Of a stretch of 39,589 bases of DNA, positions 23,361-26,868 are shown piece by piece. The DNA comes from a bacterium. GTDB taxonomy: Bacteria > Patescibacteriota > Minisyncoccia > UBA6257 > GWB1-50-10. Position numbers and translations under genes: made by a program. The stretch's first letter is position 1. Each line of letters opens with the position of its first letter. Location of the stretch: NCBI GenBank assembly GCA_021814545.1, contig JAKAID010000001.1, forward strand, positions 1 through 39,589, read 5' to 3'. The notes beneath the pieces are model-generated. The model was given only the letters and a program-made list of their open reading frames with translations. It was not told the DNA's origin and ran no database searches.

Positions 23361-25262
23361 ATGGAATTTTTTAAGAAAAATCATGAAGAGGCTCCGTCGG
23401 AACCGCATGAGGCGATACGCGCTCCCGCGCAATTTGATGCGCTTGCGCATGAGGAGGAGGGGGTGATACGCGCAATGGCGCGCAAGGCTGGAAAGAGGCT
23501 TGCGCCGGTCGCCGCAGCACTTTCGCTTTTTGTTGGCGCATCGACTGCGTATGGCGCCGAAACGGTGGCGGCGCAAGCGGAAGAAGCGCCGACCGCAGAA
23601 ACACCCGCGCTCGTTGAGGAAGGCGTGAAGCCAAAGGAGGAGTCAAAATGGTTCGAGCGCATCTCGGTCGCGGTGAGCGCCCCCCTCGAACATCTGCCGA
23701 AATTACCAGGCAGTGATAGAGGACGATACGATCTTACCAGTGCGGAGACCCTTGCGGCAGAGACCGGATTTAAGAACGCTATTTACGCTTCGGCGAGCGC
23801 GAGCGAATATTTTACGAATCTTTCAAAAATCGATTACCTTAGCCCGCAGCAAAAGACGGATGTGTTAAAACGCATCGGGGATGTGCTTTACGAAACCTAC
23901 AACGAAGACATGGCTACGAAGAATGAGGCGGTTGCCGTTTCTGATGATGTTATGTTCAAATCGATAAAGACTCTTGTAGAAACGGGGAAGCGCATACCCT
24001 CCGGCATTTGCGGGAACATATCCGTATTCGTGGCGAAAGCGGCGCGCAGTATGGGGTTCGAGTCTTGGGTTCAGGATGTTTCCGCGAGCGGCGGAGGTGG
24101 GCACGTCATTGCCGGTCTTGTAGTTGATGGCGATAGCGGCAAAGAAATAGATTTTGTGAATGGGGGGAATCTCGTGCGGGCGGGGACGCTCAATTATCGG
24201 GATGCACTCGGCGTTTTTGAGCGAGATGAGGGGCGCGTGAATATGTTCGACTCGTTCGTCGCCAACGAGGAAAGGGTTCTCACCAAGGTGGAAAGCAAAG
24301 CGCAGTCGGTTGCTGAATCGTTCGTGGGTATTATGCCCACCCAGCGTGCCGCCGAAGAACTTTTGCGCGCCGGCGCCGTCGTAAAGAATTTCAATGGCCT
24401 TGAGGTCGGTCTTAGTCCTGAGGTGCACACCTTGAAACTCACTAAGGACCATATTGCGCTTCAATTCGCTAATTTTGAGAATGTCCGAAACGACCCCTAT
24501 CAATCATTGCGGAGCCTCAATTCGTTCAGCGGAACGCTCAATTTTCAGGGCGAGCAGTACAAGGTTGACCTTGATACCACGTTCCTCCATTTCTCGCTCG
24601 ACGGGCTTCACAACAACCGCGTCGATTTTTCTACCCTCGTGTCGCGGCTTTTTGCGGAGTATGTCGACAGCCGCACCCTCACCAAGGGAGCGTGGGGAGA
24701 ATTAAAGGCGGGTCTTGGCGCGACATTCCAAGGGGCGATGAATGTGCCGCTTGGCGAGCAAAACACATTTCTTGGTCTTAGATATCTCGGCGAGGCCGCG
24801 CTCGGCGCACAGCTTGTGTATCTTGACCCGCATCGCGTCGGTCAGTTCCATTTTGGCGCATCTGACCTTGCGCGCAGGCAAGACAGCGATGCCCAACGGC
24901 AAAAATTAACGATCGCGCGGCCCTCCACACGATTCAATGTCGGTGGAGACGTGAAGGTGGCGGACGGTCTTGTGCTCGGGTTTGATGCCACAAAGCAAAG
25001 AACGGATTGGGGGGGAGCGTTTGAGGCGGAGGTGCGTGCGAAGACAAAGTTTGGCGCGGCGGAATTCTCGTACCAAAAGGAGCATTCCGCGATGGAACGA
25101 TTCATCCCTTCGACCGAAACGCTCGGCGGGCAGCTTTCGTATACCGGTGACCCAAGGTTCGAGGTGCGCGTACTCGGCTTCAAAAAGACCGAGCAGTATA
25201 AAGACGCGACACCCCATACGGAGTATGAGGCGAAGGTGGTGGCGGTTCTGAGGTTCTATTAA
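23361..25262 (+). CDS. Exported protein: transglutaminase/papain-like domain plus beta-strand-rich (barrel-like) C-terminus
   Basis: Signal-like KRLAPVAAALSLFVGASTAYG; GICGNIS...GHVIAGL...IDFVN triad-like pattern; many amphipathic strands; ends LRFY. Confidence 0.7.
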   Translation: MEFFKKNHEEAPSEPHEAIRAPAQFDALAHEEEGVIRAMARKAGKRLAPVAAALSLFVGASTAYGAETVAAQAEEAPTAETPALVEEGVKPKEESKWFERISVAVSAPLEHLPKLPGSDRGRYDLTSAETLAAETGFKNAIYASASASEYFTNLSKIDYLSPQQKTDVLKRIGDVLYETYNEDMATKNEAVAVSDDVMFKSIKTLVETGKRIPSGICGNISVFVAKAARSMGFESWVQDVSASGGGGHVIAGLVVDGDSGKEIDFVNGGNLVRAGTLNYRDALGVFERDEGRVNMFDSFVANEERVLTKVESKAQSVAESFVGIMPTQRAAEELLRAGAVVKNFNGLEVGLSPEVHTLKLTKDHIALQFANFENVRNDPYQSLRSLNSFSGTLNFQGEQYKVDLDTTFLHFSLDGLHNNRVDFSTLVSRLFAEYVDSRTLTKGAWGELKAGLGATFQGAMNVPLGEQNTFLGLRYLGEAALGAQLVYLDPHRVGQFHFGASDLARRQDSDAQRQKLTIARPSTRFNVGGDVKVADGLVLGFDATKQRTDWGGAFEAEVRAKTKFGAAEFSYQKEHSAMERFIPSTETLGGQLSYTGDPRFEVRVLGFKKTEQYKDATPHTEYEAKVVAVLRFY

Positions 25263-25519
25263 AAGAACGAGATAAATACTTTGCGGAGGGCGGCTATTTC
25301 GTCCGAGTTCATTTCGTTCACGAGGTGCACTTCGAGTTCTTTGAATGCGTGCTCTATCTCGTGCGCGGCCACTTTTCCTTTCACTTTTCCGCGCATCATC
25401 TTTGTTATCACTGCTTTCTCGTGTTCGGAGAGTTTTTCCATTTTCACGAGGAACTCTCGCAACATTTTTGCGGTTTCTTTTGCGGGTTGCTTTTTGAAAA
25501 ATGATATCGGGTCGAACAT
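25259..25519 (-). CDS. Hypothetical protein (86 aa) downstream of tRNA-Leu
   Basis: MFDPISFFKK... Lys/Glu-rich helical ORF; ATG at 25519; stop overlaps the stop of the convergent gene. Confidence 0.7.
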   Translation of the reverse strand: MFDPISFFKKQPAKETAKMLREFLVKMEKLSEHEKAVITKMMRGKVKGKVAAHEIEHAFKELEVHLVNEMNSDEIAALRKVFISFF

Positions 25520-25533
25520 AACAGTTGCGGTTT

Positions 25534-25620
25534 TGGTGCCTAAGGTGGGACTCGAACCCACAAGACCGTAAGGTCATAGCATTTTGAGTGCTACGCGTAT
25601 GCCAGTTCCGCCACTTAGGC
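25534..25620 (-). tRNA. tRNA-Leu(CAA)
   Basis: GCCTAAG acceptor, anticodon arm TAGCA-CTCAAAA-TGCTA, long variable arm, GGTTCGAGTCC and encoded CCA. Confidence 0.97.
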
Positions 25621-25642
25621 AGTTTTTCTTTTTATGAACACA

Positions 25643-25671
25643 TTGAGGATGCCACAGAAATACGCTACAGT
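25643..25671 (+). promoter_or_regulatory. Putative sigma70 promoter for the structured leader and parA
   Basis: TTGAGG-17nt-TACAGT; predicted start near 25677 coincides with the left inverted repeat. Confidence 0.5.
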
Positions 25672-25676
25672 AAAGC

Positions 25677-25950
25677 AGAATCCACATCAATAATTCTTCC
25701 GACCGCGATATGAACAAAATTATGCACAATCAAGGAATGACGACGATGGCGTACCTATTGCGGTACGGTGAGGAGGAGATGACGCAGATGGTGCATAATT
25801 TTGCCATATCCCTTCGGGTTGCGGCGGTTTTTTCACCCTTCTTCGTTACGCCTCCTCGGAGTAGTCTCCGACTACACCATCGTCGGCAAGCCTCGCAGGT
25901 CGAAAAAACTGCCAGCAACGCGGGCAGGAAGAATTATTGATGTGGATTCT
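25677..25950 (+). ncRNA. Unknown 274-nt highly structured element (parA leader or ncRNA) with 24-bp perfect terminal inverted repeat
   Basis: AGAATCCACATCAATAATTCTTCC (25677-25700) / GGAAGAATTATTGATGTGGATTCT (25927-25950); internal stems 25715-25727/25791-25803 and 25818-25834/25902-25919; central CCC-TTC-GGG (cUUCGg-type) hairpin. The structure is directly visible; that it acts as RNA is inferred. Confidence 0.6.
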
Positions 25951-26868
25951 ATGACGAGGGTTATCGCCATTTGTAACCAGAAGGGGGGCGTGGGGAAGAC
26001 CACGACCGCGATGAATTTAGCGGCGTATTTGGCGATGAGCGGATATCGCACGCTTCTTATCGATTTTGACCCGCAGTTCAATGCGACCGTGGGGCTCGGT
26101 GTGCGGCATGGCGAGGACGAAACTATCTATCATGCGCTTCTTGCGGGCACCCCGCCCGAGCGCGCGATAAAGCCGACGCATCTTTCGGGGCTCCATATGG
26201 CGCCCGCGTCCGCGCATCTTGCGGGGGCGCTCATCGAGCTCGTGAACCAGCCGGGGCGCGAGTGGTATTTGCGGAACTTCGTCGACCAGGTGAGCCATTG
26301 GTATGATTTTATTCTCATTGATTTGCCGCCGAGCCTGAATCTTCTTACAGTGAACGGACTCCTTGCTGCGGGTGAGGTCATCATTCCCGTGCAATGCGAG
26401 TATTACAGTCTGGAGGGGTTGAGCCAGCTTTTACAAACCATCGACCTTATTCGCAACAACCTCGAGCACCCGCTCCAGGTCGGGGGCGCACTGCTCACCA
26501 TGTACGACAAGCGCGAGAAGCTCTCCCGCGAAGTCGCACGCGAGGTACGGCGCCGGTTTCCGCACCACGTATACGACGTAGAAATTCCCCGCTCGGTGAG
26601 CCTCGCCGAAGCGCCGAGTTTTCAAAAGCCAGTGGCGCTTCACGCTCCTTTGAGCACGGGCGCGCAAGCATATGAACGGCTTGCGCGCGAGGTGGCGGCG
26701 CAATTCAACGGCGTCGCGGTAATTGCGCAAGAAGTGCCCGGAGTGGCTTCGGACGCGCATCTTGCGGCGGAATCCGTTGTTCCTGAAGCATCTGTTCCCC
26801 ATGGAACGGTCGTGATAGAGGGCAATGACGACCTTCCTCCTCTCGTTCTTTTTTCTCGGGATGAGTGA
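25951..26868 (+). CDS. parA: Chromosome partitioning ATPase ParA/Soj
   Basis: NQKGGVGKTT deviant Walker A, DFDPQ, IDLPP, PVQCEYY and LAEAPS; low-complexity C-terminal tail. Confidence 0.96.
   Translation: MTRVIAICNQKGGVGKTTTAMNLAAYLAMSGYRTLLIDFDPQFNATVGLGVRHGEDETIYHALLAGTPPERAIKPTHLSGLHMAPASAHLAGALIELVNQPGREWYLRNFVDQVSHWYDFILIDLPPSLNLLTVNGLLAAGEVIIPVQCEYYSLEGLSQLLQTIDLIRNNLEHPLQVGGALLTMYDKREKLSREVAREVRRRFPHHVYDVEIPRSVSLAEAPSFQKPVALHAPLSTGAQAYERLAREVAAQFNGVAVIAQEVPGVASDAHLAAESVVPEASVPHGTVVIEGNDDLPPLVLFSRDE
26793..26808. promoter_or_regulatory. Degenerate parS-like site
   Basis: TGTTCCCCATGGAACG matches TGTTCCACGTGGAACA at 13/16 and lies in the non-conserved 3' tail of parA. Confidence 0.35.

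What the first reader, a model, noticed from the sequence alone, without database searches (positions are those of the whole stretch)
25677..25950. 274-nt two-armed element with mutually complementary loops, exactly spanning promoter to parA ATG
Seen: a perfect 24-bp terminal inverted repeat (25677-25700/25927-25950). Its left end sits at the predicted TSS of TTGAGG-17-TACAGT and its right end abuts the parA ATG (25951). Inside are CCGCG/CGCGG and two arms separated by a cUUCGg hairpin (25810-25818). Arm A has a 13-bp perfect stem (25715-25727/25791-25803), a purine-rich internal loop and a cap hairpin CGTACC/GGTACG. Arm B has a stem (25818-25834/25902-25919), a pyrimidine-rich internal loop and a cap hairpin TCGGAG/CTCCGA. 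Both strands of loop A are complementary to both strands of loop B: CGACGATGG 25741-49 with CCATCGTCG 25877-85, and GAGGAGG..TGACG 25770-84 with CGTTA..CCTCCTC 25844-57. Inference: either a bistable branched-versus-rod switch or a double-crossover/kissing fold. It could be a new ncRNA class or 5' UTR gating parA translation, for example by RNase III cleavage of the 24-bp duplex releasing a near-leaderless mRNA. Alternatives are an ssDNA promoter/origin (Frpo/sso-like), a MITE, or an invertible segment. I recognise no Rfam family for it.
Basis: partly seen in the sequence, partly recalled or inferred. Interest (0 to 1): 0.9.

Follow-up and report, generated by a model that had tools for sequence, protein, structure and literature searches.

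The report
Dispersed palindromic repeat inserted before parA
The 274-base folded element in front of parA is one copy of a self-folding repeat that has spread through the tiny genomes of a group of ultra-small (CPR) bacteria, landing in ribosomal RNA genes, gene starts and even inside protein genes, so it is not a parA-specific RNA switch.

Summary
The described features are real. There is a perfect 24-bp terminal inverted repeat and a two-arm fold (z about -10 on both strands). The left end lies 5 nt after a -10 box and the right end abuts the parA ATG. But this is not a parA-specific RNA. A second copy lies in the same genome. A covariance model finds the family in 23 of 96 genomes of the family and 44 of 151 sampled genomes of the order, at up to about 10 loci per 0.6-Mb genome. 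Sister genomes keep the same parA promoter with the -10 box about 8 nt from the ATG, so the element is an insertion into a leaderless gene's start region. Other copies replace hairpin tips inside 23S and 16S rRNA genes, sit in rRNA spacers (14 of 46 full-length copies lie in rRNA operons), fill gene junctions, or lie in frame inside coding sequences. The branched fold has strong covariation (68 of 92 pairs). The loop-to-loop pairing has none. No target duplication, conserved end sequence or partner transposase was found. Best reading: a new RPE/IVS/MITE-like selfish palindromic element, tolerated because it folds on itself and is probably trimmed by RNase III. Transcription, cleavage and the mobility mechanism are untested.

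The parts
25643..25671 (+). parA promoter, host-derived and not part of the element: TTGAGG (25643-48), 17-nt spacer, TACAGT (25666-71).
   Evidence: Sequence. The same TTGAGR-17-TAGAGT/TATAGT arrangement is conserved upstream of parA in 5 sister genomes, where it lies about 8 nt (G007, G009, G010) or 20-21 nt (G005, G006) from the ATG. Not called by the consensus scan.
25677..25950 (+). The whole 274-nt two-arm palindromic repeat element, one copy of a dispersed family. Strand + is the orientation of covariance model R1.
   Evidence: Scores 272.2 bits on + against 175 bits on - with R1 (this copy is one of the 14 rows the model was built from).
25677..25700 (+). P1, 5' arm of the terminal 24-bp perfect stem (left terminal inverted repeat).
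   Evidence: (I1). In the family, 18 of 21 P1 pairs show changes on both sides.
25927..25950 (+). P1, 3' arm (right terminal inverted repeat). It ends one base before the parA ATG.
25702..25706 (+). P2 5' strand (pairs with 25920-25924). A short helix between P1 and the three-way junction.
   Evidence: A2 columns 26-30 with 255-259; 4 of 5 pairs have changes on both sides.
25707..25810 (+). Arm A. A long hairpin with purine-rich, sequence-conserved internal loops (CAAGG..GACGACGA / GAGGAG..GACGCAG) and cap CGTACC/GGTACG.
   Evidence: A2 columns 31-138, helices 3-6 (15 of 21, 2 of 3, 1 of 2 and 6 of 8 pairs with double changes). Unpaired bases are about 80% purine in all 46 full-length copies except L076.
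25810..25818 (+). Central CCC-UUCG-GGG hairpin at the junction between the arms.
   Evidence: The loop is UNCG-like on the model strand in most copies.
25818..25919 (+). Arm B. A long hairpin with pyrimidine-rich conserved internal loops (CTTCGTTACGCCTCCTC / CCATCGTCGGCAAGCCT) that are the complement of arm A's loops. The conserved cap is GTAGT/ACTAC.
   Evidence: A2 columns 147-254, helices 8-11 (17 of 21 pairs of the main stem with double changes). Arm A against revcomp(arm B) gives mean identity 0.634 against 0.58 for shuffles.
25951..26868 (+). parA (MTRVIAICNQKGGVGKTT...), the downstream host gene. Not part of the element.
   Evidence: Orthologues in 5 of 7 congeners.
25534..25620 (-). 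tRNA-Leu(CAA), the upstream neighbour. Not part of the element.
   Evidence: The same tRNA precedes parA in sister genomes.

Best explanation
The element is one copy of a dispersed, roughly two-fold-symmetric, hairpin-forming repeat family. The family has about 270-nt two-arm and about 165-nt one-arm forms, and it has multiplied within genomes of one order of CPR/Patescibacteria (records that carry it are titled Paceibacterota and similar). It behaves as a selfish, non-autonomous insertion. The closest known things are Rickettsia palindromic elements, the RNase III-excised intervening sequences of 23S rRNA, and Correia-type MITEs.

In this genome a copy was inserted into the few bases between the -10 box and the start codon of an originally leaderless parA.

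Inferred mechanism: the parA promoter now transcribes the element as a 5' leader. The RNA folds on itself, and the 24-bp terminal stem brings the transcript's 5' end next to the AUG. The long perfect duplex is probably cut by RNase III, as in rRNA intervening sequences and Correia-bearing mRNAs, leaving a short-leader parA mRNA, so parA stays expressed. The element is a tolerated passenger, not a parA-specific switch. How the DNA copies itself is unknown.
For: SHOWN

1. Family.
- A second copy lies in the same genome at 77% identity, also running from a -10 box (TGGTATAAT) to an ATG.
- BLAST finds the family in 11 of 96 genomes and model R1 in 23 of 96 genomes (12 of 43 genera) of the family.
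- R1 finds it in 44 of 151 sampled genomes of the order.
- The 62 loci examined hold 70 copies: 46 full-length and 24 shorter.

2. Insertion.
- In 5 sister genomes the conserved parA promoter has no element, and the -10 box lies about 8 nt from the ATG in 3 of them.
- Two 23S sites are filled in some congeners and empty in others that are 88-93% identical.

3. Residence where only a self-contained or removable module is tolerated.
- Copies replace hairpin tips in 23S rRNA.
- 14 of 46 full-length copies lie in rRNA operons: 8 in 23S, 1 in 16S, 4 in the 23S-5S spacer, 1 at the 23S 5' edge.
- A 165-nt copy is in frame inside tatD, and the G000 orthologue lacks those roughly 55 residues.
- 168-nt copies are read through in frame at the 5' ends of genes that, by my reading of the translations, resemble ileS (2 orthologues), rnhB and a prepilin gene.

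4. Proliferation.
- Copies cluster by genome: 24 label changes against 34.2 shuffled, with 0 of 200 shuffles as low. Tight clades lie at unrelated loci in G090, G082 and G035.

5. Structure.
- 94.9% of cells are paired and 68 of 92 pairs have double changes. 0 of 500 shuffles reach this, and slid controls give 37-43% paired and 21-28 pairs.

6. RNase III.
- It is encoded in 5 of 5 element-rich relatives. In G000 its C-terminus lies at a contig edge.

FROM THE LITERATURE (passages read): Correia MITEs in mRNA are cut by RNase III at their TIRs, and RPEs insert in frame into ORFs (PMC10969869). CPR 23S genes hold short ORF-less insertions thought to be RNase III-type IVS (PMC11270868).
Against: - No target-site duplication was seen at any junction, including 16 junctions that include the young clades.
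- The terminal repeats are not conserved in sequence between subfamilies, only in complementarity. This is unlike a transposase-recognised MITE.
- No partner enzyme was found. The Y1 transposase is present in 11 of 23 element-positive and 35 of 73 element-negative genomes. TnpB-TNB, DDE_3 and DDE_Tnp_1 are over cut-off in 0 of 5 element-rich genomes. There is no RT in G000.
- Loop sequences are conserved across family-level divergence (scores above 200 bits in other families). That is more than expected for junk and hints at a trans-acting factor or a function.
- G-U exceeds A-C cells on the model strand only about 2:1 (198 against 93; 46 of the 198 are one invariant pair), so RNA-level selection is not proven.
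- Compensatory changes in a DNA palindrome can also arise by templated repair between arms (recalled, not tested).
- Transcription, RNase III cleavage and parA expression are all untested, because no RNA data exist.
Confidence: 0.7

Rival explanations
1. A dedicated cis-regulatory 5' UTR of parA. The two arms switch between a branched and a rod/kissing fold to gate parA translation.
For: - The element spans exactly from about the predicted transcription start to the ATG.
- The single-sequence MFE is rod-like while the family consensus is branched.
- The loop A / loop B consensus sequences are complementary: 80.6% of cells paired against 31-63% when slid.
Against: - parA in 5 of 5 sister genomes examined lacks it.
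- The same element precedes or follows unrelated genes in both orientations and sits inside rRNA and coding sequences.
- The loop-loop pairs show no covariation: 157 of 500 shuffles reach the paired percentage and 79 of 500 reach the number of pairs with double changes.
Confidence: 0.05
2. A domesticated, host-beneficial RNA module. The family persists because its RNA does something useful wherever it lands: a processing or insulator site that separates cistrons, a stabiliser of flanking mRNA, a donor of start codons or promoters, or a platform for a conserved RNA-binding protein.
For: - Loop sequences are conserved across families of the order, while stems covary.
- The element is present in 7 of 7, 7 of 7 and 6 of 6 sampled genomes of three families.
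- Copies sit precisely at gene boundaries, often within 9 nt of a start codon.
- In 5 loci an ATG inside the right terminus (..ATGGGTTC.) opens the downstream reading frame as MGS-.
- The central loop is mostly UNCG-like on the model strand.
Against: - Distribution is patchy even within a genus (4 of 8 genomes in g1) and 0 of 7 in several families.
- Both orientations occur relative to flanking genes.
- Truncated and one-arm derivatives are common (24 of 70 copies).
- Insertions in rRNA helices and in tatD look like damage that is tolerated, not a service.
- No RNA data.
Confidence: 0.15
3. A DNA-level element. The hairpins or cruciform form in single-stranded or supercoiled DNA and act as sites for a recombinase, nucleoid or replication protein. 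Alternatively, the structure is needed only for a strand-specific single-stranded DNA transposition intermediate (as for IS200/IS605, REPIN-RAYT or integron attC), and RNA folding is incidental.
For: - Both strands fold equally well, and distant copies score almost equally on both strands (for example 144.9 against 141.7 bits).
- There are no target duplications.
- Termini are conserved in pairing, not sequence.
- All 14 rRNA-operon copies have one orientation relative to rRNA transcription.
- The G-U excess follows the element's own strand, not the host transcript, by my tally of the per-copy counts.
Against: - The Y1/HUH transposase does not co-occur with the element.
- Orientation is not fixed relative to replication in G118: 6 of 9 copies are antisense to the leading strand and 3 of 9 are sense.
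- Orientation goes both ways between protein genes.
- UNCG-type loops are an RNA-specific stability motif (recalled).
Confidence: 0.1

Closest known systems
Rickettsia palindromic elements (RPEs)
   Same: - Short palindromic repeats in reduced genomes.
- Dispersed at many unrelated loci and able to form stable hairpins.
- Found both between genes and in frame inside protein-coding genes, where they add a peptide. Here that means tatD plus genes resembling ileS, rnhB and a prepilin gene.
- No known transposase.
   Different: - A different host phylum.
- Larger (about 270 nt with two arms, or about 165 nt), against about 100-150 bp for RPEs (the review passage in PMC10969869 says about 150 bp).
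- An elaborate conserved two-arm architecture with conserved loops.
- A strong presence in rRNA operons (14 of 46 full-length copies).
- Sequence relatedness to RPEs was not tested, because I had no RPE sequence from a tool.
Bacterial 23S rRNA intervening sequences (IVS) excised by RNase III
   Same: - A long stem-loop that replaces the tip of a 23S hairpin.
- Sporadic, patchy distribution, and common in reduced genomes with one rRNA operon (PMC11270868, introduction passage).
- The closing duplex of 24 bp or more is a plausible RNase III substrate, and rnc is present.
   Different: - Classical IVS are known from 23S helices 9, 25 and 45 (recalled). Here the sites are at LSU model positions about 228 and about 1575 and at others, plus 16S and the spacers.
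- The same family also populates mRNA leaders, gene junctions and coding sequences.
- Excision and rRNA fragmentation are untested here.
Correia / NEMIS and ERIC-type MITEs
   Same: - A small, multi-copy, TIR-bounded element that often lies immediately upstream of genes and is co-transcribed with them.
- Correia TIR stems in mRNA are cleaved by RNase III (PMC10969869 passages), which is the processing I infer for the parA leader.
   Different: - Correia has conserved 26-bp TIRs and a TA duplication (recalled). Here there is no duplication, and the TIR sequence drifts while pairing is kept.
- The interior is a conserved, covarying two-arm structure rather than a spacer.
- No related autonomous IS was found.
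REPIN-RAYT systems
   Same: Hairpin-forming dispersed repeats built from inverted modules, long-lived within lineages, clustered by genome.
   Different: The defining association with a Y1 (RAYT) transposase gene fails: 48% of genomes carry a Y1 domain whether or not they carry the element. The elements here are far larger.

Membership tests
MITE (miniature inverted-repeat transposable element) | Small, non-coding and multi-copy within a genome | tested here: met
   About 165-280 nt. Up to about 10 loci per 0.5-0.7 Mb genome. The internal 76-aa ORF of the window copy is cut by a stop in the C8 copy.
MITE (miniature inverted-repeat transposable element) | Terminal inverted repeats | tested here: met
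   24 bp perfect in the window. P1 is paired in 96.9% of cells in 14 copies. However, the TIR sequence is not conserved between subfamilies.
MITE (miniature inverted-repeat transposable element) | Target-site duplication flanking each copy | tested here: not met
   No direct repeats at 15 junctions, at 2 filled/empty 23S sites, or at 16 junctions including the young clades.
MITE (miniature inverted-repeat transposable element) | A related autonomous element or transposase in the same genomes | tested here: not met
   Y1_Tnp shows no co-occurrence. PF07282, PF13358 and PF01609 are over cut-off in 0 of 5 element-rich genomes. Intervals between paired copies hold housekeeping genes or rRNA. Only four transposase families were tested.
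Rickettsia palindromic elements (as a kind: palindromic repeats that enter ORFs in frame) | In-frame insertion into protein-coding genes that leaves the reading frame open | tested here: met
   165 nt (55 codons) in G063 tatD, absent from G000 tatD. 168-nt copies are read through at the 5' ends of genes resembling ileS (G057, G058), rnhB (G057) and a prepilin gene (G060).
Rickettsia palindromic elements (as a kind: palindromic repeats that enter ORFs in frame) | Sequence homology to an RPE family | not tested
   No RPE sequence was available from a tool. A different phylum makes homology unlikely.
rRNA intervening sequence (IVS) | Extended stem-loop replacing the apex of an rRNA helix | tested here: met
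   A 283-nt and a 318-nt insertion at hairpin loops of the LSU model (positions about 228 and about 1575) in G061. 8 copies lie inside 23S and 1 inside 16S.
rRNA intervening sequence (IVS) | Excised from the precursor by RNase III without ligation, giving fragmented rRNA | not testable with these tools
   No RNA run holds the sequence. rnc is present in 5 of 5 relatives and, truncated by a contig end, in G000.
REPIN-RAYT | Co-occurrence with a Y1 (RAYT) transposase gene | tested here: not met
   11 of 23 element-positive against 35 of 73 element-negative genomes carry a PF01797 match.
Retron msr-msd RNA | Adjacent reverse transcriptase | tested here: not met
   No PF00078 match in G000. The downstream gene is parA.
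Any Rfam 15 family | A match to a curated covariance model | tested here: not met
   cmscan at E up to 10 on 25000-26500 gives nothing over 25677-25950. Gathering-threshold scans of 23 related loci find only rRNA, tRNA and a group I intron.

The most novel reading that the evidence does not exclude
A structure-defined mobile element with no transposase of a known family.
- It is recognised by its fold and conserved loops, not by its end sequences.
- It inserts without duplication into transiently single-stranded DNA: hairpin tips of heavily transcribed rDNA and the open-complex region of leaderless promoters.
- It makes itself harmless at the RNA level because its terminal duplex is excised by RNase III.

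This would join three phenomena so far treated separately (rRNA intervening sequences, in-frame palindromic elements and MITEs) into one life cycle. It would also imply an undiscovered mobilising factor in CPR bacteria.
Probability: 0.2. Interest if true: 0.85.

Novelty: new variant of a known kind. Interest (0 to 1): 0.6.

Why it matters
CPR bacteria are noted for rRNA genes crowded with insertions. About half of these are neither introns nor ORF-bearing and are unexplained (PMC11270868, section 5).

This finding shows that at least one such class is a genome-wide repeat, not an rRNA peculiarity. The same class also colonises gene starts, gene junctions and coding sequences in 0.5-0.8 Mb genomes that are otherwise extremely streamlined.

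It gives:
- a concrete covariance model for annotating these insertions;
- a natural system to ask how leaderless genes survive a 274-nt structured leader;
- a mobile element whose copying mechanism is unknown.

It also warns that strong covariation and a perfect fit between promoter and start codon do not by themselves indicate a gene-specific riboregulator.

Tried and rejected
- **Rfam.** Nothing on the element at E up to 10.
- **Retron reading.** No RT in G000.
- **Coding reading.** The internal 76-aa ORF is not conserved: there is a stop in the C8 copy, and by eye the substitutions are mostly non-synonymous.
- **Composite transposon reading for paired copies.** The intervals hold hisS, HIT, ybeY and ftsA, or 23S rRNA.
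- **Transposase partners.** Y1_Tnp shows no association. PF07282, PF13358 and PF01609 are absent over cut-off in 5 of 5 element-rich genomes. Other families were not tested.
- **RNase III 'absent from G000'**. Rejected as an assembly artefact, because the C-terminal 59 residues lie at the start of contig C3 next to smc.
- **Loop A / loop B kissing or rod fold.** The consensus is complementary but there is no covariation.
- **Promoter scan.** 0 sites in 25500-26050. I looked by eye for an outward -10 box in the right terminus; AT-rich TATTAT-like words occur in about half of 14 copies, but they are not conserved and the spacing is wrong, so I make no claim.
- **Replication-linked orientation.** On G118 contig C3 (554 kb, skew maximum at about 220 kb), 6 of 9 copies are antisense and 3 of 9 sense to the leading strand, so there is no strict rule.
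- **RNA evidence.** No RNA holder is listed (4 DNA runs of one study, possibly the source).
- **Reads.** Contigs only. There are no strand-change joints. Contigs break inside the element at 25883/25909. A joint 25621->25949 appears in 4 of 4 runs, but with only 27 letters on its shorter side at 90% likeness, so it probably comes from a related organism and is not used as evidence.
- **23S of G000.** It is not in the assembly, so rRNA copies could not be checked in the window's own genome.
- **Exact-motif scan of genome contigs.** 40 loci, of which 27 were chance hits in unrelated organisms and 13 were true.
- **Literature.** Two searches listed no paper describing a dispersed palindromic repeat in CPR. 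PMC11270868 does not contain the word 'repeat'.
Full report
**1. The observation**

- Arms 25677-25700 and 25927-25950 are 24 nt long, 100% complementary and 226 nt apart. The word occurs exactly twice in the window against 0.00 expected.
- The right arm ends one base before the ATG of a ParA-type ORF (MTRVIAICNQKGGVGKTT...).
- TTGAGG-17-TACAGT ends 5 nt before the left arm.
- The inner helices, the CCC-UUCG-GGG hairpin and the complementary loop words are all present.
- The sequence folds far better than shuffles, and equally well on both strands: z -10.2 and -10.0. This was the first sign of symmetry at the DNA level.
- Rfam 15 gives nothing on it at E up to 10. The only real hit nearby is tRNA-Leu(CAA) on the minus strand at 25534-25620.

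**2. It is a repeat family**

- The window's genome (561 kb, 16 contigs) holds a second copy on contig C8 at 77% identity. That copy starts 3 nt after an extended -10 box (TGGTATAAT) that overlaps the stop codon of a phosphoglycerate-mutase-like gene. It ends exactly at the ATG of a small membrane-protein gene.
- BLAST finds relatives in 11 of 96 genomes of the taxonomic family.
- I built covariance model R1 from 14 full-length copies. It finds the element in 23 of 96 genomes and 12 of 43 genera. Distribution is patchy even within the window's genus (4 of 8 genomes), with up to about 10 loci per genome.
- Across the order, 44 of 151 sampled genomes have it. Some families are 7 of 7 or 6 of 6 and others 0 of 7.
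- Of 40 loci returned by an exact 17-mer scan of named genome records, the model confirms 13. All 13 come from records titled Candidatus Paceibacterota, Liptonbacteria, 'uncultured Candidatus Saccharibacteria' or unclassified bacterium. The 27 hits it does not confirm include all of those in non-CPR organisms.
- In the 62 loci I collected from the family there are 70 copies plus two 40-nt fragments. 46 are full length (258-283 nt) and 24 are shorter (103-228 nt), many of these one-arm forms of 162-168 nt.

**3. Structure**

- The RNAalifold consensus of the 14 copies is the branched fold: P1 (terminal stem), P2, arm A, a small central hairpin and arm B. It has 92 pairs, of which 68 keep pairing through changes on both sides.
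- With controls, 94.9% of cells are paired against 75.4% in column shuffles (0 of 500 reach it) and 37-43% when partners are slid. 68 pairs have double changes against 39.5 shuffled and 21-28 slid.
- Stems vary while the internal-loop sequences are conserved.
It does not covary: 157 of 500 shuffles reach the percentage, and 6 pairs have double changes against 4.3 expected.
- The complementarity reflects the element's partial two-fold symmetry. Arm B's loops are the reverse complement of arm A's (identity 0.634 against 0.58 for shuffles). This is also why distant copies score almost equally on both strands (for example 144.9 against 141.7 bits).
- On the model strand, G-U cells outnumber A-C cells 198 to 93 in 46 copies. 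46 of the 198 come from one invariant pair, and there are 189 other mismatches. This excess is too modest to prove RNA-level selection. Templated repair between the arms of a DNA palindrome could also produce paired changes (recalled, untested).

**4. It is an insertion at parA**

- parA orthologues were found in 5 of 7 congeners. All 5 keep the promoter (TTGAGR-17-TAGAGT or TATAGT) and none has the element.
- In G007, G009 and G010 the -10 box is followed by about 8 nt and then ATG. That is the geometry of a leaderless gene. In G005 and G006 there is a 20-21 nt interval ending ..TCCT or ..TTCT before the ATG.
- So in G000 the 274 nt were inserted between the -10 box and the start codon. The C8 copy has the same geometry.

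**5. Where the other copies sit**

- *Gene junctions.* In G090 copies lie between hisS and a HIT gene and between ybeY and ftsA, overlapping the gene ends by a few bases, with no transposase between them. Many copies lie within 0-11 nt of the upstream stop codon and within 9 nt of a start codon.
- *Inside 23S.* In G061 both copies lie inside the 23S rRNA gene. They replace the apical loops of two hairpins (a 283-nt insertion at LSU model position about 228 and a 318-nt insertion at about 1575). The first site is also filled in G059 but empty in G058 and G060. The second is empty in G059, G057 and G060.
- *rRNA operon count.* I scanned 23 of the 62 loci with Rfam. Of the 46 full-length copies, 14 lie in rRNA operons: 8 inside 23S, 1 inside 16S, 4 between 23S and 5S, and 1 at the 5' edge of 23S. 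This is a lower bound.
- *Inside coding sequence.* A 165-nt one-arm copy lies in frame inside tatD of G063, and the G000 orthologue lacks those roughly 55 residues. 168-nt copies are read through in frame at the 5' ends of genes whose translations I read as ileS-like (G057 and G058), rnhB-like (G057) and prepilin-like (G060). In 5 loci an ATG inside the right terminus (..ATGGGTTC.) opens the downstream frame as MGS-.

**6. Proliferation and mobility**

- A maximum-likelihood tree of the 46 full-length copies shows two deep subfamilies (21 and 25 rows).
- Copies cluster by genome: 24 label changes against a shuffled mean of 34.2, with 0 of 200 shuffles as low.
- Tight clades lie at unrelated loci: four copies in G090, and two each in G082 and G035.
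- The window copy's nearest relatives are two G005 copies at non-orthologous loci. The C8 copy pairs with its G005 orthologue.
- No junction shows a target-site duplication.
- The terminal sequences differ between subfamilies and even between young copies, while staying complementary.
- No partner enzyme emerged. Y1 transposase domains occur in 48% of genomes with or without the element. Three other transposase families are absent from 5 element-rich genomes. There is no RT in G000.

**7. RNase III**

Pfam searches for the catalytic domain were negative in G000. However, the C-terminal 59 residues of the rnc orthologue lie at the very start of contig C3 next to smc, so the gene is cut by a contig end. 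rnc is present in 5 of 5 element-rich relatives, including G061 and G031, whose 23S genes carry the element.

**8. Orientation (unexplained)**

- All 14 rRNA-operon copies are antisense to the rRNA in the model's preferred orientation. Score differences range from 2.6 to 95 bits, and several sites are orthologous, so they are not all independent.
- Between protein genes both orientations occur.
- On the 554-kb contig of G118, which has a clean replichore structure, 6 of 9 copies are antisense to the leading strand and 3 of 9 are sense.
- I have no explanation for the rRNA bias.

**9. Interpretation**

The combination fits a selfish palindromic repeat and does not fit a gene-specific riboregulator. 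That combination is:
- dispersed copies with filled/empty polymorphism and clustering by lineage;
- truncated derivatives;
- residence at rRNA hairpin tips and in frame within ORFs.

It unites traits known separately. RPEs insert in frame into ORFs, and Correia MITEs are cut by RNase III at their TIRs in mRNA (both from passages of the review PMC10969869). 23S intervening sequences are removed by RNase III (PMC11270868: abstract, section 5 part 1 and passages; that paper regards short ORF-less CPR insertions as probable IVS and does not mention repeats).

For the window copy I infer the following steps: transcription from the parA promoter, self-folding, RNase III trimming of P1, and continued parA translation from a short leader. 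None of these steps is shown, because no RNA data exist.

It is not a textbook MITE, for these reasons:
- it has no duplication;
- its ends are not conserved in sequence;
- no transposase was found;
- its loop motifs are conserved across families of an order.

These features leave room for a new mobility mechanism or a trans-acting partner.

**10. Verdict**

The parA-switch interpretation is not supported. The element is a new variant of the palindromic-repeat/IVS kind, and no paper in my two searches describes it. Interest is moderate to high for CPR biology, rRNA insertions and mobile-element mechanisms.

Noticed in passing
window 25643-25671 and L056-L060: parA in this genus appears to be leaderless. 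The conserved -10 box (TAGAGT/TATAGT) lies about 8 nt from the ATG in G007, G009 and G010, with no Shine-Dalgarno sequence. The C8 locus has an extended -10 box overlapping the upstream stop codon. Leaderless starts may be common in these genomes.
   Followed up: partly
L062, L065, L084, L045, L082, L046, L047, L039, L043, L033, L080: All 14 rRNA-operon copies have the same orientation (antisense to the rRNA by the model's preferred strand), whereas copies between protein genes go both ways. Replication direction does not explain it (G118: 6 of 9 against 3 of 9).
   Followed up: partly
L009 (about 1501-1509), L027, L077, L085, L063 (right termini): In five loci the right terminus reads ..ATGGGTTC. 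and that ATG opens the downstream gene's frame (proteins starting MGS-). In G058 the ileS-like orthologue has lost this ATG, and the frame is open through the whole 168-nt element from an upstream ATG.
   Followed up: partly
G000 contig C3:3-179: The RNase III gene of the window's genome is truncated by a contig end. Only the last 59 residues are assembled, so domain searches wrongly report it absent.
   Followed up: yes
L056 and L057, the 20-21 nt between the -10 box and the parA ATG: G005 and G006 have short parA leaders ending ..TCCT/..TTCT before the ATG, like the element's right end (..ATTCT). They could be remnants of a lost copy, or the original leader.
   Followed up: no
L062 1-321, L065 2995-3474, L046 334-660: The same 23S genes also carry LAGLIDADG-type ORFs and a group I intron. 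Several kinds of insertion coexist in one rRNA gene.
   Followed up: no
46 of 96 genomes of the family: Many genomes encode 230-270-aa proteins that match only the C-terminal two thirds of the Y1 transposase model (E 1e-7 to 1e-12), often one per genome. They are not linked to the element, and their role is unknown.
   Followed up: no
window 25710-25940 (+) and 25801-26868 (+): The element contains a 76-aa ORF and an open frame that runs in phase into parA. Neither is conserved as coding in the C8 copy (it has a stop codon and mostly non-synonymous differences).
   Followed up: partly
G118 contig C3 (L151-L178): Very strong gene-strand bias (about 80-85% of long-ORF bases on the leading strand) and a clean GC-skew switch at about 220 kb in a genome of about 0.7 Mb.
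   Followed up: no
L040, L063 (1499-1776), L086: Three genomes (G062, G057, G035) share a copy with near-identical flanks that contain no long ORF and no Rfam match. It may be an unannotated RNA gene or a conserved spacer.
   Followed up: no
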